From Flectonema sp. DT1601 (lineage: Eukaryota), in assembly GCA_964019425.1 (NCBI GenBank), contig OZ025780.1, forward strand, positions 1,488,001 through 1,552,000: DNA of 64,000 nt, given 5' to 3'. Shown here in pieces: positions 26,256-63,222 of this stretch; within the stretch, counting starts at the first letter, position 1, and each line of letters begins with the position of its first letter. The translations under genes were made by a program, and so were the position numbers. Below the pieces are notes generated by a model that saw only the letters and a program-made list of their open reading frames with translations, ran no database searches and had not been told where the DNA came from.

Positions 26256-27901
26256 GTGACCAACCTTGACATTCTTTCTTTTCTCTCCTGTTGTGACAAA
26301 CACAAAATACACACACAGCTTACAGTGTGTTCTTTGTGTATGTTTTCTTCAGGTGTGAGTAGTTTTTTTGTTCTTGCTCTTCAGGGAGGGCCTTAGCCAA
26401 AAGCTAACAGTCCAAATCTCACCTGGAAATTCAACTCAGTCCTTGTCAGTTTTGGCATCAAACTTGTAATGGTTTAATCATTACAGGTTATTTACTGAAA
26501 TATTTGTTCTAAAAGTTGCTAAGTATTTCTCACTTAGAAATTTTTTATTTTTTTATTTTCAGCTTAATTAGCTACAAATTGTTTCTACTAAGTGTTTCTC
26601 ACTTAGATTTTTTTTTTGCTTTTCAGCTCCTTAAAAGCTGCTAAGTGTTTCTGCTAAGTGTTTCTCACTTAGAATTTTATTTTTATGTTCGTTTTCTATC
26701 CCTTCTCCTATCCCTTTTGTTCAAAATAAGCGGGAGGAAATTCTCTCATTCACGCTAAGATGCACTCTGAACTTTGATTTTTTGATCTGAGTGTGAGGGA
26801 ATGACCTGTTAGTGCATTGGGCATAGGCTGGGCTGCAGTTTAGATGTCTTAGGTGTTAATAGGGGGTTCCTCTTAGCATTTTTCTTTGTTCCCACCTTAT
26901 GATTTTCTTGAAGAAAAAAAATAGAAGTCATAATGGTGCTTCCCTCTGGAAGGGTTGTAAGCCATGGTGTCCAACTAGATTAATGGACAAGTCTGGGATA
27001 ATCCCTGCCAGAGGGGCGAGTATTCTACCATGGTTGAAATACTCTGGCAACTGATCTTCAATTTTATGTTGTTTGTTAGCTGCTGGTGTAATTAAATCAT
27101 GTGTTGATACTTGCATTTGTTTATTTGTTATCTTTTACTACAATAACGCTTGCCTATATCTTTTCTTTTTATTCCCTATCTGTTCTGATCTGTTACTTCA
27201 TTTGTCTTGTTTAACTTCAGTTATATGCATTTTACTTTTTATTGTTTCCCATCTACTTTTTATTTTCTATTAGTTCTGGTCAGAAACTCCTGGGCAGCAA
27301 GAAGGAAAGTAGTTAAGTACTTCTGGGTGTTTGGCATCACCCCCCATAGTGAGCAAGTACAACAGGTAGCATTGGTAGTCTGTTGATCCTGAGTGATCCC
27401 AGCTACAGTTTTGTTTTTCTTTCTTTTTTTTAGAAGAAGATCAGGACATCCAAGCACTGCTGGATAGTTGCTGAATGCAGGGCCTGCCTGTGGCATTATA
27501 ATAACAGGCTAAGTCATTTGTAGTTCATAGTTTACCTTTGATTTTATAACTTCACACAGGGTACTATGAACGATGAGAGATCCAGTGGGATCACTCAGGG
27601 TCTAGTAGAGACCACCAATGTTGTGCGTTGATAGGCAAGGTGACCAACCTTGACATTCTTTCTTTTCTCTCCTGTTGTGACAAACACAAAATACACACAC
27701 AGCTTACAGAATTTCGATAAAGTGGGAAGTAACGGACTGGGAGCTTTTGGCTCCTGCCCTATTCCCGATGTAAACTTTCTTTTAATTTTTATTTTTTTTT
27801 AACAGGCCCAAAGGGCGACAATGATGGTTGCTGACCAAGGAATAATATTCAAATGAATTTTCGTTTCAAAGAAACGAACAGAATTAAGAGAGAGGCAGAG
27901 G

Positions 27902-27932
<31 letters not shown>

Positions 27933-28274
27933 GAAAAAAAAAAATGAAGAGGAAATAATCAAACATGAAAAAAAAAAAAAAAAAAAATATATATATATAA
28001 ACAAAAAATGTTGTATGAAAAAGGAAAAAAAAGAAAAAAAAAAGACCAGAAAAGGAAAGAGAAAATGAAAAGGTATAATATTATTGTGGGGATATGAGGG
28101 ATAGCAGGGAGATGCTCTTTTTTTTTTTTTTTTTTTTTTTTTCTTATTTATTATTTAAAAAAGTGTTCTTTGTGTATGTTTTCTTCAGGTGTGAGTAGTT
28201 TTTTTGTTCTTGCTCTTCAGGGAGGGCCTTAGCCAAAAGCTAACAGTCCAAATCTCACCTGGAAATTCAACTCA
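26256..28274 (+). mobile_element. Element B copy 1: one 1384-bp unit plus ~180 bp repeat, interrupted by element A at 27709-28162
   Basis: GTGACCAACC at 26256 recurs at 27640; ends at GGAAATTCAACTCA; inserted in the 31-bp minisatellite with no TSD; non-coding. Confidence 0.85.
27709..28162 (-). mobile_element. Element A, short truncated copy (head only)
   Basis: Fixed end GAATTTCGATAAAGTGGG at 27709; the B sequence resumes at 28163 with a 1-2 bp loss. Confidence 0.9.
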
Positions 28275-29391
28275 CTTTACAGTTTTTGTGTGGAGCTTGT
28301 CGTTTTTTACAACTTGGTGTGGAGCTGGTGGTTTTTGAAAACTTTGTGTGTGGAGCTTGTCGTTTTTCGAAACTTTATGTGTGGAGCTTGTCGTTTTTGA
28401 AAACTTTGTAAGTCGAGCTGGTGGTTTTTAAAAACTTTGCGAGCGGAGCTTGTCGTTTTTTAAAAAAATTGTGTGTGGAGCTTGTCGTTTGTGAAAACTT
28501 TGTAAGTGGAGCTGGTGGTTTTTAAAAACTTTGCGAGCAGAGCTTGTCTTTGAAAACTTTGTGTGTGGAGCTTGTCGTTCTTGAAAACTTTGTGTGTGGA
28601 GCTTGTCGTTTTTGAAAACTTTGTGTGTGAAGCTTGTCGTTTTTAAAAACTTTGTGTGTGGAGCTTGTCGGTTTTTACAACTTTGTGAGTGGAGCTTGTC
28701 GTTTTTTAAAACTTTGTGTGTGAAGCTTGTCGTTTTTAAAAACTTCGTGTGGAGCTGGTGGTTTTTGAAAACTTTGTGTGCGGTGCTTGTCGTTTTTGAA
28801 AACTTTGCGAGTGGAGCTTGTCGTTTTTGAAAACTTTGTGTGTGGAGCTTGTCGTTTTTGAAAACTTTGTGTGGAGCTTGTCGTTTTTGAAAACTTTGTG
28901 TGTGGAGCTTGTTGTTTTTGAAAACTTTGTGTGTGAAGCTTGTCGTTTTTAAAAACTTTGTGTGTGGAGCTTGTCGTTTTTGAAAACATTGTGTGGAGCT
29001 TGTCGTTTTTGGAAACTTTGTGTGTGAAGCTTGTCGTTTTTAAAAACTTTGTGTGTGGAGCTTGTCGTTTTTGAAAACATTGTGTGTGGAGCTTGTCGTT
29101 TTTGGAAACTTTGTGTGTGAAGCTTGTCGTTTTTAAAAACTTTGTGTGTGGAGCTTGTCGTTTTTGAAAACTTTGCGTGTGGAGCTTGTCGTTTTTGAAA
29201 ACTTTGTGTGTAGAGCTTGTCGTTTTTTTACAGTTTTTGTGTGGAGCTTGTCGTTTTTTACAACTTGGTGTGGAGCTGGTGGTTTTTGAAAACTTTGTGT
29301 GTGGAGCTTGTTGTTTTTGAAAACTTTGTGTGTGGAGCTTGTTGTTTTTGAAAACTTTGTGTGTGGAGCTTGTGGTTTTTCGAAACTTTAT

Positions 29392-29775
29392 CCATGGTGT
29401 CCAACTAAATTAAAGGACAAGTCTGGGATAATCCCTGCCAGAGGGGCGAGTATTCTACCATGGTTGAAATACTCTGGCAACTGATCTTCAATTTTATGTT
29501 GTTTGTTAGCTGCTGGTGTATCTTGATCATGTGTTGATACTTGCATTTTTTTATTTGTAATCTTCTATTACAATTCTCTTTCTGTTCTGGTCTGTTACTT
29601 CATTTGTCTTGTTTAACTTCAGTTATATCCATTTTACTTTTTATTGTTTCCCATCTACTTTTTATTTTCTATTAGTTCTGGTCAGAAACTCCTGGGCAGC
29701 AAGAAGGAAAGCAGTTGAGTACTTCTGGGTGTTTGGCATCACCTCCCATAGTGAGCAAGTACAACAGGTAGCATT
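29392..29775 (+). mobile_element. Element B truncated copy, cut by element A at 29776
   Basis: Near-identical to 38036-38420. Confidence 0.85.
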
Positions 29776-30064
29776 GAATTTCGATAAAGTGGGAAGTAAC
29801 GGACTGGGAGCTTTTGGCTCCTGCCCTATTCCCGATGTAAACTTTCTTTTTATTTTTATTTTTTTTTAACAGGCCCAAAGGGCGACAATGATGGTTGCTG
29901 ACCAAGGAATAATATTCAAATGAATTTTCGTTTCAAAGAAACGAACAGAATTAAGAGAGAGGCAGAGGAAAAAAAAAAAAAAAGAAAGAAAAGAAAAGAA
30001 AAGAAAAAAAAAAATGAAGAGGAAATAATCAAACATGAAAAAAAAAAAAAAAAAAAATATATAT

Positions 30065-30840
30065 CAGTCATTCCTTTTTTTTGCGAACAAATTTTAGACA
30101 TTGAAAAAGATTTTCAAAAAAAAATTGTAAAATTTTCGATCGAAGCGGCATTTTAATGCGCTGCATCATTGGGTTCATTTCCGTCCGAAATCGGGAGGTT
30201 GGCATCACATACTTGTCACCCGAATTGAGAAAAGAGATTTTGTGGTTTACTAAATCAGCTCAGCCGTGGACAAGTACCAAAACTAAAAATTAATCGAAGG
30301 GTCTAATTTTACACTGCCGGTCCAGCGGGATCCAGAGAAAAAATAATCGAGCAAAAATATATTAAAGAGTACTAAGCATGTGCCGGTGAGGCAGATTGTT
30401 ACTACCTGTCTTTTTGGACCTACTTTGATACTTAATGATCATTATCACCACCACAGATGCAACATTTTCCTTACATAATTGCTACTAGGGTTGATTTGTT
30501 AGTAAAAAGGTGCATATCTCTTGAGTGCGGGAGAAGGGGGAAAAAATAGTGAAAAAAAAAAATTAGGGGTGTTTTTTACTCAGATTTTCTCGATCTTTCC
30601 ATTCCAGGTCTGGGATTAATATTTATCATTGAGTAGTACCAAGGAAATGTTGCAAAGAGACGTTTATCTCTTTTTAGCAGCACTTACCATGTTTAAAAGT
30701 ATATCCCTATGCCTAATTTTACAGATCGCACCCTCCCCGATTCCAAAAAATAAAAAATCGAGCAAAAGTAACATATCGTGTAACCTTGCTCAGGCGGTGA
30801 GAAAATGGTGTTTTTTGTTCGCAAAAAAAAGGAATGACTG
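30065..30840. mobile_element. Non-autonomous TIR element X inserted in (TA)n
   Basis: TIRs CAGTCATTCCTTTTTTTTGCGAACAAA / TTTGTTCGCAAAAAAAAGGAATGACTG; the first ~370 bp are near-identical to 63223-63597. Confidence 0.9.
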
Positions 30841-30850
30841 ATATATATAT

Positions 30851-32574
30851 TAGTCATTCCAAAAATAACCGGCCGCGAAAACCAGTTTTGCTTCGAGCAG
30901 CCGTTGGTCAAAAATGCATCCATTTTCGAGATTTTTTACGAGGTGGAAAGGTTCGGCCCCAATCTCTCATTTTACGCGATGGGATTATTTTTTTTTCACT
31001 TTTTTTACTGACCGTTGGAACCCGACAGGTGCGTTATGGGTACTAAGAGAATGTCACTGTCGGCACGGAAAAGTTAATCCTGTTGCTGCATTTAATTTTT
31101 TTCTGGAAAAAAAAGGGAAATGCATCAGAGATTGGCATTTTTTCTCGTAACTACACTTATTATTCCCTTAAGCACCAGCTTAAACTTCTCTTGTCACATG
31201 TGCCACGAGATGCCAGCTGAGTATGTCGTCGCGGATTTGCCAGAACCGGTAATGAGGACGCTAGATCGGAGTGGGAGAAAAGGCAATCTGCATCGCATGC
31301 CTCCGGAAATACAAGCACTTCGGGAATACAAGAACCGACAAGGCGTGCTCCTCAGACAACTACAACTGCACCTCGCACACTAACGCGAAAAGATGGAATC
31401 CGAAGTTCAACAAGCTTCTTGAGCCACCCTGCCGTGACTTCGCGGTAGTCTTGAAATCCCCGGCGTATGCTCCTCTGCGCTCAATCTGCAACGCTTGCTA
31501 CCAGCGAGCAAAAAGGCTGACTAGTGATCCGCATTACGCATCCGTCAGTGTCCCTGCAGAGCCGATCAATCCGGAACCGCTCTCCGATATTTTTGAACGC
31601 GTGAAAGAATCAGTTCCTGCTGTCCGTTCTCAGTTTTTGAGACTCTGTCTCACGCTAAGCTACACTGATAGCCAGATTAATGCCCATGTCAGGGATTCTT
31701 CAATGCGTAAGCAGCTACAGAGGCTGGAACAGCACGATCCCTCCCAATCAGTAAAGCAGCGCAGCCAAGACAGAGATATCTGGAACTTCTGGATTTCCAA
31801 TGCACGCCCTGAGTCAAACCGCGTGGTCCTCAGCAAAGACTACATAACCGGCGAGACAAGTAAAGAGACAGTCCTCCATGTAAAAGAACCATACCTTGCC
31901 TTGGAGTGCCTTCTGCAGAACTCACACAGCTATCTCATATGCTCAGTTTTGTGACAAAAGGCCTAAATGTGGGTTGGTGCGAGCCAACTTTCACCTGCTA
32001 CCAACACTGAGAGTGAGTCTATTTCAGAAACAACTGAACCCACCTCAGATTCTGGTGAGTCTTCTACTGGCTCTTACTCTGTTAGTGAATCTAGTTCTAG
32101 TTCCAGTTTCAGATCGCTGTGTTCAACTAGTTCTATTATCGGTTCATTGCCGGTAGGAAAACGAAGAAAGCCAGCAGTAAAAGTTGCCAAAAAAGCTAAG
32201 CCTAATCAAAAATAAAAATAGGCTAAGTGTAGTGTAAGATGTACAAGGTACTGTTTTGCTTCGAGCAGCCTTTGTAACTGTTTCAGAGTAAAACATCCGA
32301 CCAGGTACGGCCGGATATAGAACCATATACCGATTTTTCATTTTAGCACCCGGGGCAGCCGATTAGACATCAACAGTTCCATTATTCAAAAATTTCACCA
32401 CACAAAAATGTCACAATTTTTTTGAATCTCAGCTGCATTTTTTTGAATCGCAGCGGGAATGAAATCGGCGGTGCAAAAGCGATTAAAATGGGTATTCGGT
32501 TTTAAGTTTTACTCCCTATTTTCACCCATGAAATACTGGAACCCTAAAATGGACGGTTATTTTTGGAATGACTA
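30851..32574 (+). mobile_element. TIR element Y (related termini), with internally deleted coding remnants 31271-32215
   Basis: TIRs TAGTCATTCCAAAAATAACCG / CGGTTATTTTTGGAATGACTA within (TA)n; Cys-motif ORF (CIAC, CNAC) followed by a Ser-rich frame. Confidence 0.85.
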
Positions 32575-33941
32575 ATATATATAAATAAAAAACGTTGTAT
32601 GAAAAAGGAAAAAAAAGAAAAAAAAAAGACCAGAAAAGGAAAGAGAAAATGAAAAGGTATAATATTATTGTGGGGATATGAGGGATAGCAGGGAGATGCT
32701 CTTTTTTTTTTTTTTTTTTTTTTTCTTATTTATTATTTAAAAAAAGGAAACAATCAGTTTAGCGTCTCGATCAGGACGGAAAATAGAAATTAATCGACAT
32801 AGTTGATCGATAGAAAAAAAAAACAATGATAACATTGTTTATTCATTTTTTTTTTTTTTTTTTTTTTTTTAAATCTTTTTAATTATTTTAAAGAAAAAAC
32901 AATCAGTTTAGCGTCTTGACCAGGACGGAAAATAGTAAGTAATCGACATAGTCGATCGATAAAAAAAAAACAATGATAACATTGTTTATTCCTTTTTTTT
33001 TTTTTTTATTCTTTTTATTTATTTTTAAAGAAAAAACAATCAGTTTAGCGTCCTGACCAGGACGGAAAATAGAAAGTAATCGACATAGTCGATCGATAAA
33101 AAAAAACAATGATAACATTGTTTATTCTTTTTTTTTTTTTTTATTTTAATTCTTTTTATTTATTTTTTAAAAAGAAAAAAAATGGAAAATAGAAATTAGT
33201 CAACAAAGTCGAACGATAAAAAAAAACACAATGATAACATTGTTTATTCTTTTTTTTTTTATTTTTTTTATATTCTTTTTTATTAATCTTGAAAAAAAAA
33301 ACAATCAGTTTAGCGTCTTGACCAGGACGGAAAATAGAAAGTAGTCGACATAGTCGATCGATAAAAAAAACAATGATAACATTGTTTATTCTTTTTTTTT
33401 TTATTTTAAATTCTTTTTATTTATTTTTTAAAGAAAAAAAACGGAAAATAGAAATTAGTCGACAAAGTCGAACGATAAAAAAAAACAATGATAACATTGT
33501 TTATTCTTTTTTTTGTATTTTTTTATATTCTTTTTTATTAATTTTGAAAAAAAAAACAATCAGTTTAGCGTCTTGACCAGGACGGAAAATAGAAAGTAAT
33601 CGACATAGTCGATCGATAAAAAAAACAATGATAACATTGTTTATTCTTTTTTTTTTTTTTTTTTTAAATTCTTTTTATTAATTTTTTAAAGAAAAAAAAC
33701 GGAAAATAGAAATTAGTCAACAAAGTCGAACGATAAAAAAAAACAATGATAACATTGTTTATTCTTTTTTTTTATTTTTTTTTTTTAATATTTTTTTTTT
33801 TTTTTATTTTGAAAAAAAAACAATCAGTTTAGCGTCTTGACCAGGACGGAAAATAGAAAGTGATCGACATAGTCGATCGATAAAAAAACAATGATAACAT
33901 TGTTTATTCTTTTTTTTTATTTTAAATTCTTTTTATTATTT

Positions 33942-33981
33942 ATATCTGTACTTTATTGTTTTACATATCTGTACTTTATTG
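33942..33981 (+). other. Two tandem spliced-leader relics (ATATCTGTACTTTATTG x2) at the LINE 5' end
   Basis: The 17-mer occurs at 33942-33958 and 33965-33981. TCTGTACTTTATTG is the 3' end of euglenozoan SL exons (e.g. Leishmania, Diplonema). It lies 20 nt upstream of the ORF1 ATG. Confidence 0.8.
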
Positions 33982-34001
33982 ATTTCCAATAATTAACAAC
34001 T

Positions 34002-36609
34002 ATGACATTGGATCCAGGCCTATTTGGCCTGATGCTGGAGAAGATGGTGGGCATGCTCGGTGAGATGCAGAAGGGTTTGAATGTAAAGGGGGTTACTAAA
34101 CGCAACGGGGGAGAGAAGTCATCGGTGGATTTATCGCCGATGAATGAAGAATGGACGAGGGTACGTGGTAAACGGCCCAAGGTAGTGAAGCGCAAGTCTG
34201 AGCCGGCTCAAGCGCTGAATTCGTTTAGTGGACTGAAGGAGGTCCGATGTGATGGGAAGGCAGCAACGAATTTCGAAAAGGTGGGAAGTAACGGACTGGG
34301 AGCTTTTGGCTCCTGCCCTATTCCCGATGTAAACTTTCTTTTTATTTTTTTTTTTTTTTTTAACAGGCCCAAAGGGCGACAATGATGGTTGCTGACCAAG
34401 GAATAATATTCAAATGAATTTTCGTTTCAAAGAAACGAACAGAATTAAGAGAGAGGTAGAGAAAAAAAAAAAAAAAAAAAAAAAAAAAAGAAAGAATAGA
34501 AAAAAAATATGAAGAGGAAATAATCAAACATGAAAAAAAAAAAAAAAAATAAAATATAAATAAAAAACGTTGTATGAAAAAGGAAAAAAAGAAAAAAAAA
34601 AGACCAGAAAAGGAAAGAGAAAATGAAAAGGTATAATATTATTGTGGGGATATGAGGATAGCAGGGAGATGCTCTTTTTTTTTTTTTTTTTTTCTTTTTT
34701 TTTTTATTTATTATTTAAAAAAAGAAACAATCAGTTTAGCGTCTCGATCAGGACGGAAAATAGAAATTAATCGACATAGTCGATCGATAGAAAAAAAACA
34801 ATGATAACATTGTTTATTCCTTTTTTTTTTTTTTTTTTTTTTATTCTTTTTATTTATTTTTAAAGAAAAAACAATCAGTTTAGCGTCCTGACCAGGACGG
34901 AAAATTGAAAGTGATCGACATAGTCGATCGATAGAAAAAAAACAATGATAACATTGTTTATTCCTTTTTTTTTTTTTTTTTTTTTTATTCTTTTTATTTA
35001 TTTTTAAAGAAAAAACAATCAGTTTAGCGTCCTGACCAGGACGGAAAATTGAAAGTGATCGACATAGTCGATCGATAGAAAAAAAACAATGATAACATTG
35101 TTTATTCTTTTTTTTTTTTTTTTTTTTTTTAAATCCTTTTAATTATTTTAAAGAAAAACAATCAATTTGCCGAATGTGCAAGAGAAGCGGTGGGACTGCC
35201 AACTCCGTGATGATGACTGGTCTGTTCCAGTAATTTCGATGTCAGGCGTGTTTAACACGTCGATTACGTGTGGTGTGTCACTGGGCACGGCCTCTGATGT
35301 AGATGCGATGATTAAACTCCGACCGGGAACAAACCTCTCGGTAATTTGCAAGAAAAACCCTGGGGGCGGTAAGAAGATACAGTTCCCGGCGGTGGTAAAC
35401 GACGGTGTACTGACACATCGGACCGGTTGGATTGTATCAACCGGGAAACCAGCTACCCTCTTCCGTGGAGACGCTCTGACTGCCGGTGACAATCGAGTGG
35501 TATTGTTCCACCACCACGCGCTCCACTCCAACGACAAGGTGCCTTCGCCTAGTGAGCTATGCAAGAAGGCCTCCGACTTCTACACGGCAGTTACGAACCT
35601 GCCCATCGAGCCGCACCTCTTGTGGCCTGCCAACAAGAAGGAATCAGACCCTCATGTTAAGTCTGTGAACATGAGGGTGCCAGCAGACGCTGTTGACGCC
35701 TTGAGAAGGGCAAGTGGGAGTGGTGGGTACTTCTTATCAGTACCGAATTTCGCAGACACAGCACCGTGCAGGACGTCAATCCAGCTCACGGTGGATTTTA
35801 AGTTAGCCTCATCGCTAGCCGGTGAACTCCGGTTACCTCTGAGGTTCTACCGCCACTCACGCAAACTGGGGGTTGTGTGTCTGAAGACCGACGAAGATTA
35901 CGTTCGATCGAAGCTGGGTGAGAATGCACTGCCGCCTCCACCTGAAGGCCTCAAGTTCTGTTTGAGGAGCCGAGCCATTGATGCGATGAGTTCGCTGGAA
36001 GTAGTGCAGGTCTGTGCTCACCAAGGGTGGGAGATTAACGTCGTTGCTCGGTACAGGAGCAGAAAGGAGCTTCCTAAGATGATTGTAGTGGCCAAGGAGA
36101 AACCCAAGAGTAACTTCATCATTCTTCGTGATGACATGATCACAATCAAAGAGGTGGGCCTCGGCAAGCAGAATCCCGATAAGATGGACCTGGACGAGTT
36201 TCCTCACCTCTGTCAACCTAACGCTGCGCCATCTGTTGGAATTGATTTATCGCCACCGCCTGTTTCTCAGCAAAATCAGCAATATCTGCAAACGCTTCAA
36301 TCGAACAAACAGCAGCTGCCCATACCGCCTTCGCAGTACAACTGTCAACAATCCGACATTTCTAAATTGGTATCGCAGGTTACTGAACTAACGGCTGCTG
36401 TGAAGAGTCTACGGCAGGACCTTGCTGAAGAGAGGGATGCGAATAGATGTCTCCGAAAGGAGATTGAGTCCCTAAATAATGAAAAAGGATCGGGATCTCA
36501 GAGGCTGACCGTCTCAAGTAGGCAACGAGCTAACTCTGTTGCTGCTACTAAGTCTGAAATGGCTGACCGTCTTGATCGGAATGAGAAACGGGACTACTCG
36601 CGGAATTAG
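34002..36609 (+). CDS. LINE ORF1 (570 aa after removing insert 34274-35168)
   Basis: The join ACG AAT TT|G CCG AAT gives ...GKAATNLPNVQEKRW...; C-terminal Q-rich and coiled-coil region; AATTT is duplicated at the junctions. Confidence 0.8.
34268..35163 (-). mobile_element. Element A copy inserted in LINE ORF1
   Basis: Fixed end GAATTTCGAAAAGGTGGG; truncated after ~3.5 satellite units; AATTT on both sides. Confidence 0.9.
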
Positions 36610-40439: not shown

Positions 40440-40475
<36 letters not shown>

Positions 40476-41017: not shown

Positions 41018-41052
<35 letters not shown>

Positions 41053-46594: not shown

Positions 46595-46627
<33 letters not shown>

Positions 46628-51907: not shown

Positions 51908-51908
51908 T

Positions 51909-53480: not shown

Positions 53481-53583
53481 TGAACGTCTCTTTCCTCTAG
53501 TGTAATTTCTTATTTTATTTATTAGAATTCCTCAATTCTTCCGTCATGGTCATGACATTCTTTTTCGTTTCTCTAATGCACAA

Positions 53584-53678
53584 GAGATACCATCACTCAT
53601 GAGATACCAACGCACATACGAGATACCAGCACTCCAGAGATACCGACACGCTAGAGATACCAAGTCACTTGAGATACC
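53584..53678 (+). repeat. Six GAGATACC boxes with variable 9-11 bp spacers
   Basis: Starts at 53584, 53601, 53620, 53637, 53654 and 53671; counterpart on the minus strand at 49239-49333. Confidence 0.9.
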
Positions 53679-54240
53679 TCCTTGTAAATTAATTCCCGGT
53701 ATTTCAAATTTGAATTGATAGTGTCAACTCTGCTTGCTGCTCTTGTTAATGTGTTGTCTCCTGAAAGTGATCTTAACTCCTGTAAAAAGAAAAAAAAAAA
53801 GAAATCAAAAAAGAAGAATTTTCAAACGAAGTTATAACAACCCCTACCACCCATTATGATCAATTCCGCTTGTTTTTTTTTTTTTTTAAAACAAAAAAAA
53901 AAATAAAAAATTATAAAAGATTAAACAATGTTATCATTGTATTTTTATCGATCGACTATGTCGATTACTTTCTATTTTCCGTCCTGGTCAAGACGCTAAA
54001 CTGATTGTTTTTTTTTTTTTTTTTCAAAATTAATAAAAAAGAATATAAAAAAAAAAATAAAAAAAAGAATAAACAATGTTATCATTGTTTTTTTATCGAT
54101 CGACTATGTCGATTACTTTCTATTTTCCGTCCTGGTCAAGACGCTAAACTGATTGTTTTTTTTTTTTTCAAAATTAATAAAAAAGAATAAAAAAAAAAAA
54201 AATAAAAAAAAGAATAAACAATGTTATCATTGTTTTTTTA

Positions 54241-54280
54241 AGACGCTAAACTGATTGTTTTTTCTTTAAAAAAAAAAAAG

Positions 54281-54314
<34 letters not shown>

Positions 54315-55088
54315 AATAAACAATGTTATCATTGTTTTTTTTTATCGATCGACTATGTCGATCACTTTCTATTTTCCGTCCTGGTCAAGACGCTAAACTG
54401 ATTGTTTTTTTTTCAAAATTAATAAAAAAGAATATAAAAAAAAAAAATAAAAAAAAAAGAATAAACAATGTTATCATTGTTTTTTTTTTATCGTTCGACT
54501 TTGTCGACTAATTTCTATTTTCCGTTTTTTTTCTTTTTAAAATAAAAAGAATTTAAAAAAAAAAAAAAAAAAAAGAGTAAACAATGTTATCATTGTTTTT
54601 TTTTATCGATCGACTATGTCGATTACTTTCTATTTTCCGTCCTAGTCAAGACGCTAAACTGATTGTTTTTTTTTCAAAATTAATAAAAAAGAATAAAAAA
54701 AAACAAAAAAAAAAAGAATAAACAATGTTATCATTGTTTTTTTTTTATCGTTCGACTTTGTCGACTAATTTTTATTTTCCGTTTTTTTTTCTTTAAAAAT
54801 AAATAAAAAGAATTTAAAAAAAAAAAAAAAAAAAGAATAAACAATGTTATCATTGTTTTTTTATCGATCGACTATGTCGATCACTTTCTATTTTCCGTCC
54901 TGGTCAAGACGCTAAACTGATTGTTTTTTCTTTAAAATAATAAAAAGGATTAAAAAAAAAAAAAAAAAAAAAAAGAATAAACAATGTTATCATTGTTTTT
55001 TATCGATCGACTATGTCGATCACTTTCTATTTTCCGTCCTGGTCAAGACGCTAAACTGATTGTTTTTTCTTTAAAAAATAATTAAAAG

Positions 55089-55127
<39 letters not shown>

Positions 55128-56249
55128 ATAAACAATGTTATCATTGTTTTTTTATCGATCGACTATGTCGATCACTTTCAATTTTCCGTCCTGGTCAGGA
55201 CGCTAAACTGATTGTTTTTTCTTTAAAAATAAATAAAAAGAATAAAAAAAAAAAAAAAAAAAAAGGAATAAACAATGTTATCATTGTTTTTTTTTTATCG
55301 ATCGACTATGTCGATTACTTTCTATTTTCCACCCTGGTCAAGACGCTAAACTGATTGTTTTTCTTTAAAATAATTAAAAGGATTTAAAAAAAAAAAAAAA
55401 AAAAAAAAAGAATAAACAATGTTATCATTGTTTTTTTTCTATCGATCGACTATGTCGATCACTTTCAATTTTCCGTCCTGGTCAGGACGCTAAACTGATT
55501 GTTTTTTCTTTAAAAATAAATAAAAAGAATAAAAAAAAAAAAAAAAAAAAAAAGGAATAAACAATGTTATCATTGTTTTTTTTCTATCGATCGACTATGT
55601 CGATCACTTTCAATTTTCCGTCCTGGTCAGGACGCTAAACTGATTGTTTTTTCTTTAAAAATAAATAAAAAGAATAAAAAAAAAAAAAAAAAAAAAAGGA
55701 ATAAACAATGTTATCATTGTTTTTTTTCTATCGATCGACTATGTCGATTAATTTCTATTTTCCGTCCTGATCGAGACGCTAAACTGATTGTTTCTTTTTT
55801 TAAATAATAAATAAAAAAAAAAAGAAAAAAAAAAAAAAAAAAAGAGCATCTCCCTGCTATCCTCATATCCCCACAATAATATTATACCTTTTCATTTTCT
55901 CTTTCCTTTTCTGGTCTTTTTTTTTTCTTTTTTTCCTTTTTCATACAACGTTTTTTATTTATATTTTATTTTTTTTTTTTTTTTTTCATGTTTGATTATT
56001 TCCTCTTCATTTTTTTTTCTATTCTTTCTTTTTTTTTTTTTTTTTTTTTTTTTTTTCTCTACCTCTCTCTTAATTCTGTTCGTTTCTTTGAAACGAAAAT
56101 TCATTTGAATATTATTCCTTGGTCAGCAACCATCATTGTCGCCCTTTGGGCCTGTTAAAAAAAAAAAAAAAATAAAAAGAAAGTTTACATCGGGAATAGG
56201 GCAGGAGCCAAAAGCTCCCAGTCCGTTACTTCCCACCTTTTCGAAATTC
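54241..56249 (+). mobile_element. Element A inner copy with 15-bp TSD ATCATTGTTTTTTTA
   Basis: The TSD lies at 54226-54240 and 56250-56264; fixed end at 56249. Confidence 0.85.
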
Positions 56250-57417
56250 ATCATTGTTTTTTTATCGTTCGACTTTGTCGACTAATTTCTATTTTCCGTT
56301 TTTCTTCTTAAAAAATAAATAAAAAGAATTTAAAAAAAAAAAAAAAAAAAAAAGAATAAACAATGTTATCATTGTTTTTTTATCGATCGACTATGTCGAT
56401 TACTTTCTATTTTCCGTCCTGGTCAAGACGCTAAACTGATTGTTTTTTTTTTTTTCAAAATTAATAAAAAAGAATAAAAAAAAAAAAAATAAAAAAAAGA
56501 ATAAACAATGTTATCATTGTTTTTTTATCGTTCGACTTTGTCGACTAATTTCTATTTTCCGTTTTTTTTTCTTAAAAAATAAATAAAAAGAATTTAAAAA
56601 AAAAAAAAAAAAAAGAATAAACAATGTTATCATTGTTTTTTTATCGATCGACTTTGTCAACTAATTTCTATTTTCCGTCCTGGTCAAGACGCTAAACTGA
56701 TTGTTTTTTCTAAATAAATAAAAAGAATAAAAAAAAAAAAAAAAAAAAAAGATTAAACAATGTTATCATTGTTTTTTTTTATCGATCGACTATGTCGATT
56801 ACTTTCTATTTTCCGTCCTGGTCAGGACGCTAAACTGATTGTTTTTTCTTTAAAAAATAAATAAAAAGAATAAAAAAAAAAAAAAAAATAAAAAAAGAAT
56901 AAACAATGTTATCATTGTTTTTTTATCGATCGACTATGTCGATCACTTTCTATTTTCCGTCCTGGTCAAGACGCAAAACTGATTGTTTTTTTTCAAAATT
57001 AATAAAAAAGAATACAAAAAAAAATTAAAAAAAAAAGAATAAACAATGTTATCATTGTTTTTTTTTTATCGTTCGACGTTGTTGACTAATTTCTATTTTC
57101 CGTTTTTTTTTTTTCTTTTTAAAAAATAAATAAAAAGATTTAAAAAAAAAAAAAAAGAATAAACAATGTTATCATTGTTTTTTTTATCGATCGACTATGT
57201 CGATTACTTTCTATTTTCCGTCCTGGTCAGGACGCTAAACTGATTGTTTTTTCTTGAAAAAATAAATAAAAAGAATAAAAAAAAAAAAAAAAAAAAAAAA
57301 AAGAATAAACAATGTTATCATTGTTTTGTTATCGATCGACTTTGTCGACTAATTTCTATTTTCCGTCCTGGTCAAGACGCTAAACTGATGTTTTTTCTTT
57401 AAAAAATAAATAAAAAG

Positions 57418-57451
<34 letters not shown>

Positions 57452-59051
57452 TAAACAATGTTATCATTGTTTTTTTATCGATCGACTATGTCGATCACTT
57501 TCTATTTCCCGTCCTGGTCAGGACGCTAAACTGATTGTTTTTTCTTTAAAAATAAATAAAAAGAATAAAAAAAAAAAAAAAAGGAATAAACAATGTTATC
57601 ATTGTTTTTATTTTATCGATCGACTATGTCGATTACTTTCTATTTTCCGTCCTGGTCAAGACGCTAAACTGATTGTTTTTTCTTTAAAAAATAAAAAGAA
57701 GGATTTAAAAAAAAAAAAAAAAAAAAAAAAGAATAAACAATGTTATCATTGTTTTTTTATCGATCGACTATGTCGATCACTTTCTATTTTTCGTCCTGGT
57801 CAAGACGCTAAACTGATTGTTTTTTCTTTAAAAATAATAAAAAGGATTAAAAAAAAAAAAAAAAAAAGAATAAACAATGTTATCATTGTTTTTTTATCGA
57901 TCGACTATGTCGATCACTTTCTATTTTCCGTCCTGGTCAAGACGCAAAACTGATTGTTTTTTTTCAAAATTAATAAAAAAGAATACAAAAAAAAATAAAA
58001 AAAAAAGAATAAACAATGTTATCATTGTTTTTTTTTTTATCGTTCGACGTTGTTGACTAATTTCTATTTTCCGTTTTTTTTTTTCTTTTTAAAAAATAAA
58101 TAAAAAGATTTAAAAAAAAAAAAAAAGAATAAACAATGTTATCATTGTTTTTTTTATCGATCGACTATGTCGATTACTTTCTATTTTCCGTCTTGGTCAG
58201 GACGCTAAACTGATTGTTTTTTCTTTAAAAAAAAAAAAAGGATTTAAAAAAAAAAAAAAAAAAGAAAAAAAAAAGAATAAACAATGTTATCATTGTTTTT
58301 TTTTATCGATCGACTATGTCGATCACTTTCTATTTTCCGTCCTGGTCAAGACGCTAAACTGATTGTTTTTTTTTTAAAAATTAATAAAAAAGAATATAAA
58401 AAAAAAAAATAAAAAAAAAAGAATAAACAATGTTATCATTGTTTTTTTTTTATCGTTCGACTTTGTCGACTAATTTCTATTTTCCGTTTTTTTTCTTTTT
58501 AAAATAAAAAGAATTTAAAAAAAAAAAAAAAAAAAGAGTAAACAATGTTATCATTGTTTTTTTTTATCGATCGACTATGTCGATTACTTTCTATTTTCCG
58601 TCCTAGTCAAGACGCTAAACTGATTGTTTTTTTTTCAAAATTAATAAAAAAGAATAAAAAAAAACAAAAAAAAAAAGAATAAACAATGTTATCATTGTTT
58701 TTTTTTTATCGTTCGACTTTGTCGACTAATTTTTATTTTCCGTTTTTTTTTCTTTAAAAATAAATAAAAAGAATTTAAAAAAAAAAAAAAAAAAAAGAAT
58801 AAACAATGTTATCATTGTTTTTTTATCGATCGACTATGTCGATCACTTTCTATTTTCCGTCCTGGTCAAGACGCTAAACTGATTGTTTTTTCTTTAAAAT
58901 AATAAAAAGGATTAAAAAAAAAAGAAAAAAAAAAAAAGAATAAACAATGTTATCATTGTTTTTTATCGATCGACTATGTCGATCACTTTCTATTTTCCGT
59001 CCTGGTCAAGACGCTAAACTGATTGTTTTTTCTTTAAAAAATAATTAAAAG

Positions 59052-59084
<33 letters not shown>

Positions 59085-59735
59085 AATAAACAATGTTATC
59101 ATTGTTTTTTTATCGATCGACTATGTCGATCACTTTCAATTTTCCGTCCTGGTCAGGACGCTAAACTGATTGTTTTTTCTTTAAAAATAAATAAAAAGAA
59201 TAAAAAAAAAAAAAAAAAAAAAAGAATAAACAATGTTATCATTGTTTTTTTATCGATCGACTATGTCGATCACTTTCTATTTTTCGTCCTGGTCAAGACG
59301 CTAAACTGATTGTTTTTTCTTTAAAAATAATAAAAAGGATTAAAAAAAAAAAAAAAAAAAGAATAAACAATGTTATCATTGTTTTTTTATCGATCGACTA
59401 TGTCGATCACTTTCTATTTTCCGTCCTGGTCAAGACGCAAAACTGATTGTTTTTTTTCAAAATTAATAAAAAAGAATACAAAAAAAAATAAAAAAAAAAG
59501 AATAAACAATGTTATCATTGTTTTTTTTTTTATCGTTCGACGTTGTTGACTAATTTCTATTTTCCGTTTTTTTTTTTCTTTTTAAAAAATAAATAAAAAG
59601 ATTTAAAAAAAAAAAAAAAGAATAAACAATGTTATCATTGTTTTTTTTATCGATCGACTATGTCGATTACTTTCTATTTTCCGTCTTGGTCAGGACGCTA
59701 AACTGATTGTTTTTTCTTTAAAAAAAAAAAAAGGA

Positions 59736-59768
<33 letters not shown>

Positions 59769-60546
59769 GAATAAACAATGTTATCATTGTTTTTTTTTAT
59801 CGATCGACTATGTCGATCACTTTCTATTTTCCGTCCTGGTCAAGACGCTAAACTGATTGTTTTTTTTTTAAAAATTAATAAAAAAGAATATAAAAAAAAA
59901 AAATAAAAAAAAAAGAATAAACAATGTTATCATTGTTTTTTTTTTATCGTTCGACTTTGTCGACTAATTTCTATTTTCCGTTTTTTTTCTTTTTAAAATA
60001 AAAAGAATTTAAAAAAAAAAAAAAAAAAAGAGTAAACAATGTTATCATTGTTTTTTTTTATCGATCGACTATGTCGATTACTTTCTATTTTCCGTCCTAG
60101 TCAAGACGCTAAACTGATTGTTTTTTTTTCAAAATTAATAAAAAAGAATAAAAAAAAACAAAAAAAAAAAGAATAAACAATGTTATCATTGTTTTTTTTT
60201 TATCGTTCGACTTTGTCGACTAATTTTTATTTTCCGTTTTTTTTTCTTTAAAAATAAATAAAAAGAATTTAAAAAAAAAAAAAAAAAAAAAGAATAAACA
60301 ATGTTATCATTGTTTTTTTATCGATCGACTATGTCGATCACTTTCTATTTTCCGTCCTGGTCAAGACGCTAAACTGATTGTTTTTTCTTTAAAATAATAA
60401 AAAGGATTAAAAAAAAAAGAAAAAAAAAAAAAGAATAAACAATGTTATCATTGTTTTTTATCGATCGACTATGTCGATCACTTTCTATTTTCCGTCCTGG
60501 TCAAGACGCTAAACTGATTGTTTTTTCTTTAAAAAATAATTAAAAG

Positions 60547-60581
<35 letters not shown>

Positions 60582-61100
60582 ATAAACAATGTTATCATTG
60601 TTTTTTTATCGATCGACTATGTCGATCACTTTCAATTTTCCGTCCTGGTCAGGACGCTAAACTGATTGTTTTTTCTTTAAAAATAAATAAAAAGAATAAA
60701 AAAAAAAAAAAAAAAAAAAGGAATAAACAATGTTATCATTGTTTTTTTTTTATCGATCGACTATGTCGATTACTTTCTATTTTCCGCCCTGGTCAAGACG
60801 CTAAACTGATTGTTTTTTCTTTAAAATAATTAAAAGGATTTAAAAAAAAAAAAAAAAAAAAAAGAATAAACAATGTTATCATTGTTTTTTTTCTATCGAT
60901 CGACTATGTCGATCACTTTCAATTTTCCGTCCTGGTCAGGACGCTAAACTGATTGTTTTTTCTTTAAAAATAAATAAAAAGAATAAAAAAAAAAAAAAAA
61001 AAAAAGGAATAAACAATGTTATCATTGTTTTTTTTCTATCGATCAACTATGTCGATTAATTTCTATTTTCCGTCCTGATCGAGACGCTAAACTGATTGTT
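56250..61100. repeat. ~100-125 bp satellite array of element A (largest block; others at 32750-33940, 40496-43637, 44092-44609, 45568-48930, 53920-55793, 61821-63050)
   Basis: Unit CAATCAGTTTAGCGTCTTGACCAGGACGGAAAATAGAAAGTRATCGACATAGTCGATCGAT(A)nCAATGATAACATTGTTTATTC(T)n, alternating with a shorter GTCGACAAAGTCGAACGAT variant. Confidence 0.95.
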
Positions 61101-61115
61101 TCCTTTTTTTAAATA

Positions 61116-61155
<40 letters not shown>

Positions 61156-61545
61156 ATCTCCCTGCTATCCTCATATCCCCACAATAATATTATACCTTTT
61201 CATTTTCTCTTTCCTTTTCTGGTCTTTTTTTTTTTCTTTTTTTCCTTTTTCATACAACGTTTTTTATTTTTATTTTTTTTTTTTTTTTCATGTTTGATTA
61301 TTTCCTCTTCATATTTTTTTTCTATTCTTTCTTTTTTTTTTTTTTTTTTTTTCTCTACCTCTCTCTTAATTCTGTTCGTTACTTTGAAACGAAAATTCAT
61401 TTGAATATTATTCCTTGGTCAGCAACCATCATTGTCGCCCTTTGGGCCTGTTAAAAAAAAAAAAAAAATAAAAAGAAAGTTTACATCGGGAATAGGGCAG
61501 GAGCCAAAAGCTCCCAGTCCGTTACTTCCCACCTTTTCGAAATTC

Positions 61546-61820
61546 ATCATTTCTCTTTCTTATCATTACTTTATTTCTTATTTTCTGATCTAATGTGGCG
61601 TGTTCTCCCTCTCTTTGGCGAAAATTGGCGTTATCAGCCGTCTCTAACACTGTCTGCTCGCGTGGACGGTGGGTTTAGGTAGTCATTTGTTCCAGGTTAT
61701 TCTACGTCTCTTATCGTCTGTGAGAGTCTCACGGTTGCTGGTAGCGATATAACTGTTACTCTGTGAGCTTTTCCTGGCTTTTGGCTTCCTAGGCTTCGTA
61801 AATAAATAAATAAATAAATA
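61546..61820 (+). other. Distal LINE 3' UTR and (TAAA)5 tail
   Basis: Unique sequence ending in TAAA repeats (61799-61820), after which the satellite unit interrupted at 33941 resumes. Confidence 0.8.
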
Positions 61821-61903
61821 TTTATTTTTAAAGAAAAAAAACGGAAAATAGAAATTAGTCAACAAAGTCGAACGATAAAAAAAACAATGATAACATTGTT
61901 TAT

Positions 61904-61941
<38 letters not shown>

Positions 61942-62083
61942 TTCTTTTTTATTAATTTTGAAAAAAAAAACAATCAGTTTAGCGTCTTGACCAGGACGGA
62001 AAATAGAAAGTAATCGACATAGTCGATCGATAAAAAAACAATGATAACATTGTTTATTCTTTTTTTTTATTTTAAATTCTTTT

Positions 62084-62920
62084 AACTGATTGTTTTTTTT
62101 TCAAAATAAAAAAAAATATTAAAAAAAAAAAAATAAAAAAAAAGAATAAACAATGTTATCATTGTTTTTTTTTATCGTTCGACTTTGTTGACTAATTTCT
62201 ATTTTCCGTTTTTTATTCTTTAAAAAATAAATAAAAAGAATTTAAAAAAAAAAAAAAAAAAAAGAATAAACAATGTTATCATTGTTTTTTTTATCGATCG
62301 ACTATGTCGATTACTTTCTATTTTCCGTCCTGGTCAAGACGCTAAACTGATTGTTTTTTTTTCAAAATTAATAAAAAAGAATATAAAAAAAATAAAAAAA
62401 AAAAGAATAAACAATGTTATCATTGTTTTTTTTTTATCGTTCGACTTTGTTGACTAATTTCTATTTTCCATTTTTTTTCTTTTTAAAAATAAATAAAAAG
62501 AATTAAAATATAAAAAAAAAAAAAAAGAATAAACAATGTTATCATTGTTTTTTTTATCGATCGACTATGTCGATTACTTTCTATTTTCCGTCCTGGTCAA
62601 GACGCTAAACTGATTGTTTTTTTTTCAAAATTAATAAAAAAGAATATAAAAAAAATAAAAAAAAAAAGAATAAACAATGTTATAATTGTTTTTTTTTATC
62701 GATCGACTATGTCGATTACTTTCTATTTTCCGTCCTGGTCAGGACGATAAACTGATTGTTTTTTCTTTAAAAATAAATAAAAAGAATAAAAAAAAAAAAA
62801 AAAGGAATAAACAATGTTATCATTGTTTTTTTTTTATCGATCGACTATGTCGATTACTTACTATTTTCCGTCCTGGTCAAGACGCTAAACTGAATGTTTT
62901 TTCTTTAAAATAATTAAAAA

Positions 62921-62953
<33 letters not shown>

Positions 62954-63222
62954 TGAATAAACAATGTTATCATTGTTTTTTTTTCTATCGATCAACTATG
63001 TCGATTAATTTCTATTTTCCGTCCTGATCGAGACGCTAAACTGATTGTTTCCTTTTTTTAAATAATAAATAAGAAAAAAAAAAAAAAAAAAAAAAGAGCA
63101 TCTCCCTGCTATCCCCCATATCCCCACAATAATATTATACCTTTTCATTTTCTCTTTCCTTTTCTGGTCTTTTTTTTTTCTTTTTTTTCCTTTTTCATAC
63201 AACGTTTTTTATTTATATATAT
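62084..63222 (+). mobile_element. Element A copy (inverted relative to its host), interrupted in its head by transposon X'
   Basis: Satellite orientation flips at 62084; head sequence 63050-63222. Confidence 0.85.

What the first reader, a model, noticed from the sequence alone, without database searches (positions are those of the whole stretch)
27709..63222. Element A: a multi-kilobase satellite-carrying non-autonomous retroposon
Ten copies, nine with a visible fixed end (27709, 29776, 34268, 37655, 44091, 45110, 51907, 56249, 61545). The other end is truncated anywhere from ~0.35 to ~6 kb. Junctions range from 1-2 bp deletions through 2-5 bp shared bases to a 15-bp TSD, often with target microhomology to GAAATTC. 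This pattern fits target-primed reverse transcription with 5' truncation. There are two subfamilies (GATAAAGTGGG/GAGGCAGAG versus GAAAAGGTGGG/GAGGTAGAG). No ORF, no recognisable tRNA head and no tail repeat. It is far larger than a typical SINE and moves whole satellite arrays.
Basis: partly seen in the sequence, partly recalled or inferred. Interest (0 to 1): 0.8.

Follow-up and report, generated by a model that had tools for sequence, protein, structure and literature searches.

The report
Satellite-filled tail of R2-like retrotransposon
Ten copies of a 0.35-5.3 kb stretch of satellite DNA that ends in one fixed hairpin are nested through this window, and they are likely the unusually long non-coding tail of an R2-like jumping gene, which would copy whole satellite arrays to new sites through RNA.

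Summary
Element A is real: ten young copies in two subfamilies, one fixed end with a hairpin, the other end cut 0.35-5.3 kb in. Satellite units keep their order between dispersed copies. Empty sites read from intact neighbours show 1-3 nt duplications or 1-2 nt deletions, 1-2 nt of target match at the fixed end (4 of 7 readable sites) and excess overlap at the cut end (P=0.002). That fits target-primed reverse transcription and not Helitron insertion. The 15-bp TSD is not confirmed. A second family, B, shares the hairpin with two compensated pairs. New here: the start-less ORF at 20920-21594 is the cut-off end of a 47-member protein cluster with reverse transcriptase, CCHC knuckle and restriction-like endonuclease (nearest solved structures: R2), followed by about 600 extra residues. 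361 nt after its stop lies a 44-nt segment that also forms the far end of copy A6. So A is likely the multi-kilobase 3' part of an R2-like element, not a stand-alone non-coding family. No single copy was seen running from ORF to hairpin, and no RNA data were available. New variant of a known kind; interest 0.5.

The parts
20920..21594 (+). 5'-cut end of the ORF of an R2-like (RLE) non-LTR retrotransposon: last 224 codons of a coiled-coil-rich extension that follows the endonuclease in fuller copies
   Evidence: Product P0180 is a member of the 47-member cluster of P0167, 94% identical to residues 812-1035 of P0172; no match upstream of 20920; RT and endonuclease motifs in P0179
21595..21955 (+). 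361-nt non-coding stretch between the RLE stop and segment Z; presumed 3' UTR, continuity not proven (holds an A18 run)
   Evidence: Sequence; its last 30 nt resemble the loose end of X2 contig 9 beside the A6-type Z
21956..21999 (+). Segment Z (44 nt, small hairpin), shared with the far end of A6
   Evidence: 91% over 44 nt, E 8e-13; fold
22010..29389 (+). 31-bp satellite array that follows Z (22010-22676, 25623-26253, 28276-29389), split by a TIR transposon and by B copies; its own 3' end is not in the window
   Evidence: flanks rejoin across the B insertion
26256..28273 (+). Family B: 182-nt partial copy plus 1.38-kb unit in head-to-tail tandem, ending in the shared hairpin and GAAATTCAACTC; split by A1
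29392..29775 (+). 5'-cut B copy in the 31-bp array, split by A2
37836..40224 (+). B tandem (1,033-nt partial plus 1,356-nt unit) inserted into the head of A4; 5-nt overlap at cut end, 2-nt deletion
27709..28162 (-). A1, 454 nt, subfamily I, in B; G shared at fixed end, 1-nt deletion
   Evidence: Three empty B copies in the window
29776..62083 (-). A2, subfamily I, about 1.9 kb in three pieces (29776-30063, 32575-33941, 61819-62083), split by two TIR elements and by the APE LINE; G shared at fixed end
34268..35168 (-). A3, 901 nt, subfamily II, in ORF1 of the APE LINE; empty site not seen
37654..44609 (-). A4, subfamily II, about 2.1 kb in three pieces (37654-37835, 40225-41656, 44092-44609), split by B and A5; in ORF2 of the APE LINE
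   Evidence: Intact proteins read KLRP-D-LIAK across the site in 5 of 5 members that cover it
41657..44091 (+). A5, 2,435 nt, subfamily I, inserted in reverse into the satellite of A4; no shared base at fixed end
45110..50073 (-). A6, 4,964 nt, subfamily I: head, 26 satellite units, 17-bp repeats, segment Y, two 231-bp repeats, Z; GA on both sides (2-nt duplication)
   Evidence: Intact proteins read LVGNR-CEHL across the site
45135..45160 (-). Terminal hairpin core (example in A6): 4+5-pair stem, CAAAA loop, 25 nt from the end
   Evidence: Same fold in A and B; 9 of 9 pairs kept, 2 changed on both sides
49396..49512 (-). Segment Y of A6, shared with B (27160-27281) in the same orientation
   Evidence: 76% over 123 nt, E 2e-17
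51115..51907 (+). A7, about 350 nt, subfamily II, split by a TIR element (51179-51624); 3-nt duplication TCT
   Evidence: Empty site seen as DNA: X1 contig 3 joins 51114 to 51906
53526..56249 (+). A8, 2,724 nt, subfamily II, in the 3' UTR of the APE LINE
   Evidence: Contigs of X1 and X2 both stop matching at 53526; empty site inferred only
56250..61545 (+). A9, 5,296 nt, subfamily II, 35 satellite units, inserted at the fixed end of A8; closer to A4 than to A8, so not a local duplicate
62084..63221 (+). A10, visible part 1,138 nt; cut by a TIR element at 63222, fixed end outside the window
33942..61818 (+). APE-RT-RNase H LINE, in pieces; target of six A insertions, itself inserted in A2; ends in (TAAA)n. 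Serves as the empty-site reference
   Evidence: Pfam; intact 1,349-aa relatives

Best explanation
Element A is a fixed hairpin end plus up to 5.3 kb of satellite-filled DNA, and it is likely the long non-coding 3' part of the RNA of an R2-like (restriction-like endonuclease) non-LTR retrotransposon, whose reverse transcriptase would bind the hairpin and copy the RNA into nicked DNA. Steps. Shown: fixed end, variable cut end, junction pattern, ordered satellite cargo, and a young multi-copy RT-endonuclease family whose ORF end lies in this window ahead of segment Z. Inferred: the strand that ends in GAAATTC is the RNA; the endonuclease nicks with little sequence preference; the primer pairs with the last 1-2 letters of the RNA; copying usually stops inside the A/T-rich satellite, so most copies never reach the ORF and look non-coding; the second nick falls within a few bases of the first, giving 1-3 nt duplications or 1-2 nt deletions; the cut end is joined by short overlaps. 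Head-to-tail tandems (B, A8/A9) would come from template jumps, read-through, or priming on an existing end. Untested: transcription, binding, and a single copy running from ORF to hairpin.
For: Empty sites: A1, A2 and both B insertions from other copies in the window, A4 and A6 from intact proteins, A7 from DNA. Far-junction overlap 22 nt over 10 junctions against a null mean of 7.7, P=0.002. This matches the R2 5' junction pattern of 1-5 nt microhomology, deletions and extra bases (PMC2718515, passages), and R2 protein binds a 3' UTR structure (PMC13580325, passages). Hairpin kept with two compensated pairs between A and B. Satellite unit order is kept between dispersed copies. P0179 has RT (E 8e-17) and zf-RVT, CCHC, RHD and RPD..E..K motifs, and R2 proteins as nearest solved relatives (E 2.7e-23). 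The window ORF belongs to that cluster, is cut at its 5' side and lies on the same strand 361 nt ahead of Z, which A6 shares. X2 contig 9 extends A6-type Z by 30 nt that match the stretch ahead of Z at 27 of 30 by eye. A, B and the 31-bp array are joined to RLE ORF pieces at other loci, in both nesting orders, so they were active together.
Against: The link from ORF to hairpin is two-step and rests on one window locus, one 44-nt segment and one 132-nt contig; no copy was seen whole. The array that follows the ORF here is the 31-bp one, not A's, and its 3' end is outside the window. B turned out to be inserted into that array, not its native end. An A18 run 270 nt after the stop could be the element's real tail, making Z part of a separate insertion. 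All these repeats nest in each other, so adjacency is weak evidence; at other loci 6 of 7 junction peptides are same-strand and 1 opposite, with gene-calling bias. The fixed-end match is weak (4 of 7; P 0.02-0.07). The overlap values were read by eye and A3's value (4) rests on an inferred target. The genome could not be searched for Penelope-like or HUH proteins. The hairpin comparison has only three sequences (58 of 500 shuffles as high).
Confidence: 0.5

Rival explanations
1. A is a stand-alone non-coding family that keeps the 3' hairpin and is copied in trans by the same R2-like reverse transcriptase.
For: Same junction evidence. Ten copies without ORF. B behaves as a short 1.36-1.38 kb unit in tandem, and X4 holds a cyclic 1,352-nt contig with A's end. 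A18 run after the RLE stop could end the coding element.
Against: No A copy with its own 5' end was seen; A6 is cut at Z and the family goes on into sequence like that behind the RLE stop. 66 runs of five or more T on the sense strand of A6 rule out a Pol III SINE, so it needs another promoter.
Confidence: 0.22
2. A and B are non-autonomous Penelope-like elements moved by an RT with GIY-YIG endonuclease (like MRC1 and other Chlamys derivatives).
For: Partial head-to-tail tandems of B look like pseudo-LTRs; frequent truncation, internal tandem repeats and lack of hammerheads are reported for Chlamys (PMC8557442 sections 9, 10, 15); priming near a stem-loop and insertion into its own copies are reported for PAc (PMC11167929 parts 1-2).
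Against: No Penelope-like protein in the window or among the proteins fetched; the partner found next to Z is R2-like. A6 has no pseudo-LTR. One exact end, no optional tail. PAc primes without target homology, A shows a slight match.
Confidence: 0.12
3. A is copied as DNA by an HUH endonuclease (Helitron, Helentron or Replitron type), starting at the fixed end and stopping at random.
For: Helentrons and Paramecium Helitrons carry ordered satellite arrays (PMC7492417, PMC13085455, passages). Hairpin near one end, cyclic contig in X4. Replitron-1 makes variable TSDs (PMC10288648 part 4).
Against: No strict dinucleotide target (first flank base at the nine fixed ends: t, a, g, a, a, g, t, a, a), duplications and deletions at the target, no TC...CTRR ends, no terminal direct repeat of Replitron type, no Rep ORF nearby.
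Confidence: 0.08
4. A is copied in trans by the APE-RT-RNase H LINE that it interrupts.
For: That LINE is young and has intact 1,349-aa copies; it nests with A in both orders. A 10-nt word near its 3' end matches the hairpin loop region, though on the opposite strand.
Against: Its 3' end is (TAAA)n and unlike A's; A has no such tail; APE elements usually leave longer TSDs (recalled; R1 gives 14 bp in PMC2718515).
Confidence: 0.05
5. The pattern comes from local duplications, recombination in a satellite field, or assembly errors.
For: Long homopolymers and arrays are hard to assemble; A9's array shows internal block duplication.
Against: Copies interrupt intact reading frames at single points that rejoin, an empty site exists as DNA in another run, two subfamilies interleave, and A9 resembles A4 more than its neighbour A8.
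Confidence: 0.03

Closest known systems
R2-group (RLE) non-LTR retrotransposons: R2, and the NeSL/Utopia, HERO, CRE, R4 clades; non-site-specific BLAG elements; FoTeR/MoTeR
   Same: RT followed by CCHC knuckle and RHD / PD..E endonuclease motifs (motif as given in PMC12857005); 5' truncation with 1-5 nt overlaps, small deletions, extra bases (PMC2718515); structured 3' end; FoTeRs carry tandem repeats, mostly 5' of the ORF.
   Different: About 600 residues follow the endonuclease motifs, where R2 ends with that domain (PMC13580325). If A is its 3' part, that part is over 5 kb against 600 nt in cockroach R2, 132-241 nt in BLAG (PMC7650587) and 336-409 nt in FoTeR. No fixed target, no tail. Clade not determined; a HERO likeness of the motifs is recalled, not tested.
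Non-autonomous Chlamys Penelope-like elements (MRC1, Chlamys-N4)
   Same: No ORF, 5' truncation, head-to-tail partial tandems, similarity to partners at the 3' end (PMC8557442; 10.1101/2022.05.23.493040 passages).
   Different: No Penelope-like partner seen, no microsatellite target, no pseudo-LTR on A, one exact end.
Helentron-associated HINE/DINE elements and satellite-bearing Paramecium Helitrons
   Same: Disperse ordered satellite arrays; hairpin near one end.
   Different: They insert at AT, TT or TC without TSD and need both termini; A has TSDs and deletions, no strict target, and one conserved end.
SINEs of stringent LINEs (3' stem-loop shared with the partner)
   Same: Non-coding, 3' stem-loop kept by compensated pairs (general feature recalled).
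   Different: No tRNA/5S/7SL head, many T runs, ten times longer, no tail repeat.

Membership tests
RLE non-LTR retrotransposon (partner ORF) | Non-LTR reverse transcriptase | tested here: met
   RVT_1 E 8e-17 in P0179; best PDB matches are R2 proteins, E 2.7e-23
RLE non-LTR retrotransposon (partner ORF) | CCHC knuckle followed by RHD and PD..E..K endonuclease motifs | tested here: met
   C-x2-C-x8-H-x4-C-x11-RHD-x80-RPD-x14-..E..K at residues 521-670; compare PMC12857005. Activity untested; the structure model was unusable
RLE non-LTR retrotransposon (partner ORF) | Endonuclease is the last domain of the protein | tested here: not met
   617 residues from the EVGVRG motif to the stop in P0172; no Pfam family there, only generic coiled-coil look-alikes
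RLE non-LTR retrotransposon (partner ORF) | N-terminal zinc fingers/Myb and RT phylogeny that fix the clade | not testable with these tools
   The longest member seen (P0179) starts inside the RT; 15 of 47 members were listed; no reference sequences of the clades on hand
RLE non-LTR retrotransposon (element A as its 3' part) | ORF and 3' end on one continuous copy | tested here: inconclusive
RLE non-LTR retrotransposon (element A as its 3' part) | Fixed 3' end, 5' truncation with short overlaps, little or no TSD | tested here: met
RLE non-LTR retrotransposon (element A as its 3' part) | Sequence-specific target (usual, not universal) | tested here: not met
   Targets are unrelated sequences; at most G/GA shared
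RLE non-LTR retrotransposon (element A as its 3' part) | RNA on the hairpin-last strand | not testable with these tools
   Only contigs were available
SINE (Pol III) | tRNA, 5S or 7SL head and no internal T runs | tested here: not met
   66 T runs of 5 or more in A6. The true 5' end of A was not seen
Penelope-like element | Telomerase-like RT with GIY-YIG partner | not testable with these tools
   None in the window ORFs scanned; the genome could not be searched
Penelope-like element | Partial tandem (pseudo-LTR) arrangement | tested here: inconclusive
   Present in both long B insertions, absent in canonical form from A
Penelope-like element | Hammerhead ribozyme (absent in most Chlamys and Naiads) | tested here: not met
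   No Rfam hammerhead; no CUGANGA core in A, two in B without the GAAA partner
Helitron / Helentron | Insertion at AT or TT without TSD; TC...CTRR or subterminal inverted repeats | tested here: not met
   definition from PMC13085455
Helitron / Helentron | Hairpin near the 3' end | tested here: met
Replitron | Short terminal direct repeats, RG target, Rep Y1 partner | tested here: inconclusive
   No RG rule at the fixed end; far terminus not seen; partner not searchable; definition from PMC10288648
Passenger of the APE-RT-RNase H LINE | Shared 3' end or tail with that LINE | tested here: not met
   (TAAA)n versus hairpin plus GAAATTC

The most novel reading that the evidence does not exclude
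[quoted passage not shown] It would be an RNA route for seeding ordered satellite arrays across a genome, a job so far credited mainly to rolling-circle elements.
Probability: 0.35. Interest if true: 0.7.

Novelty: new variant of a known kind. Interest (0 to 1): 0.5.

Why it matters
Dispersed satellite arrays inside mobile elements are usually put down to Helitrons. Here the junctions point to reverse transcription, so satellites with 25-30 nt homopolymers would travel as RNA in ordered 5-kb blocks. A tail-less, non-site-specific R2 relative that needs only a 70-nt hairpin and carries 5 kb of cargo is a direct test case for how R2-type enzymes choose template and target, a question of current interest for R2-based gene insertion (PMC13580325, passages). 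It also warns annotators that ORF-less 'non-autonomous' families can be the long 3' ends of coding elements.

Tried and rejected
No whole genome is held, so no genome-wide end counts. No RNA holder listed. X3 gave one 31-nt piece and several X2/X4 pieces of 21-35 nt over A-rich sequence; these were ignored as chance. Hairpin pattern: 0 matches in viral, metagenome and prokaryotic genome contigs; segment Z: 0 in viral contigs; P0179 found no relative in metagenome contigs. Earlier findings: none for this genome or these sequences. Rejected readings of my own: (1) A6 is full length with a conserved 5' end; refuted by X2 contig 9. (2) A8+A9 flanked by an 8-bp TSD; dropped once A8's cut end was placed at 53526. 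(3) B is the native continuation of the 31-bp array; the array flanks rejoin across it. (4) The X4 cyclic unit shares only A's last 59 nt; not knowable, the next stretch was skipped. (5) TOC1 as a Penelope-like precedent (recalled); PMC9940879 calls it DIRS. (6) A9 as a local duplicate of A8; it is closer to A4. The one-sided overlap null was replaced by the two-sided one. The first pair count used a mis-registered structure and was redone. Single-sequence model of P0171: mean pLDDT 36, not used for a fold search. Host lineage not determined: one host protein had no relative but itself, another no Atlas hit. Twister-like Rfam match at 22935-23018 is far below its gathering score.

Full report
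Scope and data. No genome is held for this window. The work rests on the window, on proteins of a public collection that come from long assembly contigs (the window's own contig is among them: P0001 and P0180 both show 187,040 bases), on one laying of contigs from four coded runs, and on papers. That the other long contigs belong to the same genome is inferred from 94-100% identity to window ORFs. The host looks like a protist with introns; its lineage was not determined.

1. The observation. Nine fixed ends lie at the stated places. Read on the strand that ends in GAAATTC, each copy is satellite, then a 450-nt head, then a hairpin and the end. After removing nested inserts the copies carry 351, 454, 901, 1,920, 2,132, 2,435, 2,724, 4,964 and 5,296 nt; the tenth shows 1,138 nt before a TIR element cuts it. 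Heads fall in two subfamilies. Coding the 137/258-bp satellite units shows the same order next to the head in dispersed copies: 0 1 2 3 in A2, A5 and A6, and the block 9 6 6 5 10 5 in A4, A8 and A9. So the array travels with the head. No ORF, tRNA or Rfam family was found. The 15-bp TSD was not found. The one long flank match is at A9, which sits on A8's end; six letters are flank, and A9 resembles A4 more than A8, so it is a separate insertion at an existing end.

2. Nesting. From 20920 to the end the window is one nest. A 5'-cut ORF is followed by segment Z and a 31-bp array. A TIR transposon and three B insertions split or follow the array; A1 and A2 sit in B; two TIR elements and an APE-RT-RNase H LINE sit in A2; A3, A4, A6, A7, A8 and A9 sit in that LINE; B and A5 sit in A4.

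3. Empty sites. Intact relatives of the APE LINE (P0002, P0122, P0123; 97.6-99.7% identical to the long window pieces) read straight across the A4, A6 and A7 sites, and X1 contig 3 joins 51114 to 51906 as DNA. With the empty B, head and array copies in the window the net changes are: A1 loses 1 nt; A6 duplicates 2; A7 duplicates 3; A4 duplicates 1-2, with its first base changed; A5 is in an A run with one extra base; B loses 2 nt at both sites, once with two extra bases on each side. The target starts with the element's own first letter(s), G or GA on the GAATTTC strand, at 4 of 7 readable sites (A1, A2, A6, A7 yes; A5 and both B no). A3 and A8 (target not seen), A9 (homologous end) and A4 (first base changed) were left out; with A4 it is 5 of 8. 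P is 0.02-0.07 for an assumed chance of 0.18-0.25; the real G share of the targets is 0.09-0.26. At the cut end the summed overlap over 10 junctions is 22 nt against 7.7 expected, P=0.002 (values read by eye, A3's from an inferred target). There is no fixed dinucleotide. This is the pattern described for truncated R2 copies (PMC2718515, passages) and not that of Helitrons (PMC13085455 and PMC7492417, passages).

4. The hairpin and family B. A second family ends in the same core, stem-loop with CAAAA loop, then GAAATTC. Both fold alike on that strand (z -2.8 for A, -0.2 for B); all 9 pairs hold and two are changed on both sides (three sequences, 58 of 500 shuffles as high). B also shares a 123-nt inner segment with A6 (76%). 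Both long B insertions are a partial copy plus a full 1.36-1.38 kb unit with the same joint. X4 holds a 1,382-nt contig whose ends overlap by 30 nt inside A's hairpin, a tandem or circle of 1,352 nt.

5. The far end. A6 stops in a 44-nt segment Z that also lies at 21956-21999 (91%). I first took this for a conserved 5' terminus. X2 contig 9 carries A6's last 35 nt unchanged and goes on with 30 nt like those ahead of Z in the window. So A6 is cut too, and no complete A was seen.

6. The partner. 361 nt ahead of Z, on the same strand, ends an ORF without a start. A scan of 1.84 billion representatives gave 7 relatives, all fragments; several run into A or a TIR element. An alignment search among longer proteins gave one cluster, P0167, 47 members (only 7,989 candidates were scored). 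Of 15 members listed, P0180 is the window ORF. P0179 has RT and zf-RVT, the CCHC, RHD and RPD..E..K motifs (compare the REL motif in PMC12857005, passages), and R2 proteins as its three best matches among 177,635 solved sequences. It has no significant match to the APE LINE. About 600 residues follow the endonuclease; they match no Pfam family and only generic coiled coils. Diverged versions at 48-85% exist, so there are several subfamilies. At other loci A, B and the 31-bp array are joined to pieces of this ORF, 6 of 7 on the same strand among 13 proteins checked; P0170 has A satellite before and A head after it.

7. Mechanism. Most likely (0.5) A is the 3' part of the RNA of one RLE subfamily, native or captured: the protein binds the hairpin, primes on nicked DNA with 0-2 paired bases, and stalls in the satellite, so copies rarely reach the ORF 5 kb or more upstream. 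Next (0.22) A is a separate non-coding family moved by the same enzyme. Together these put the R2-like driver at about 0.7. Penelope-like (0.12), HUH (0.08), APE LINE (0.05) and artefact (0.03) follow. Against the best reading: the ORF-to-hairpin link is indirect, the window's ORF is followed by a different satellite whose end is outside the window, an A18 run could be the real tail, and everything here nests in everything.

8. Known and new. Retrotransposition by RLE elements, 3' stem-loops and truncation are textbook. Tandem repeats inside RLE elements (FoTeR) and Chlamys elements (PMC8557442) are known. Unusual are the size of the inferred 3' region (over 5 kb against 0.13-0.6 kb in PMC7650587 and PMC12857005), the long protein extension, the lack of tail and target, and the ordered satellite cargo. 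Ten full-text searches showed no paper on this combination; the library lacks most subscription journals and Repbase, so this is weak. Papers seen: PMC8557442 abstract and sections 9, 10, 15; PMC10288648 parts 1, 2, 4 of 7; PMC11167929 parts 1-2 of 4; 10.64898/2026.07.22.740005 part 1 of 5; passages only of 10.1101/2022.05.23.493040, PMC3846280, PMC9940879, PMC13085455, PMC13580325, PMC2718515, PMC7650587, PMC12857005, PMC10088271, PMC7492417. No supplements were read; those of PMC8557442 and PMC13580325 may list related elements. The HERO likeness and typical APE TSD lengths are recalled.

Verdict. Real, mobile and young; a retro-mechanism is well supported, 'non-autonomous' is not. New variant of a known kind, interest 0.5; 0.7 if the ORF-to-hairpin link holds.

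Noticed in passing
window 22677-25622: 3-kb transposon with 39-nt terminal inverted repeats and a 5-bp TSD (GTGGT) in the 31-bp array; two ORFs on the minus strand, one with a weak integrase-core match (E 0.005, below cut-off). Pieces of it also end P0161 and P0164 at other loci.
   Followed up: partly
window 30064-30845, 30856-32574, 63222-64000: TIR elements in TA runs of the A head; the same site of A is hit in A2 and A10 in opposite orientation. A 229-aa ORF at 31265-31954 has only a weak zinc-finger match.
   Followed up: partly
window 51179-51624: 446-nt non-coding TIR element at a TA in A7, rich in palindromes, weakly like 25208-25307.
   Followed up: no
window 33942-61818: Young APE-RT-RNase H LINE with intact 1,349-aa copies elsewhere and two sister families at 47-48% identity; all other relatives score far lower. 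Clade not determined.
   Followed up: partly
window 61775-61790: Near the APE LINE's 3' end a 10-nt word matches the loop region of the A/B hairpin, but on the opposite strand relative to transcription; probably chance.
   Followed up: no
window 26354-26385: Just ahead of B's hairpin, on the sense strand, a GTGAGT...pyrimidine run...CAG stretch of about 30 nt looks like a tiny intron and is kept in all four B ends.
   Followed up: no
window 21985-22010 and 50020-50040; X2 contig 9: Three different sequences (31-bp array, A's 231-bp repeat, B body) join within about 12 nt behind the small hairpin of Z: an insertion or template-switch hot spot, or the point where different satellites grew.
   Followed up: partly
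window 29392 and protein P0172: A B copy here and one at another locus are cut at nearly the same base (B position 26962), suggesting a preferred stop.
   Followed up: no
window 49588-50034: The two 231-bp repeats of A6 hold a hairpin and a motif like those of the 137-bp satellite unit and may be its older form (by eye).
   Followed up: no
window 1-20432: Host genes on the minus strand: TMEM43-like, IQ-repeat, TPR, histidine phosphatase, and a cysteine-rich repeat protein without Pfam or Atlas match; a 57-copy AACAC run at 7486-7771.
   Followed up: no
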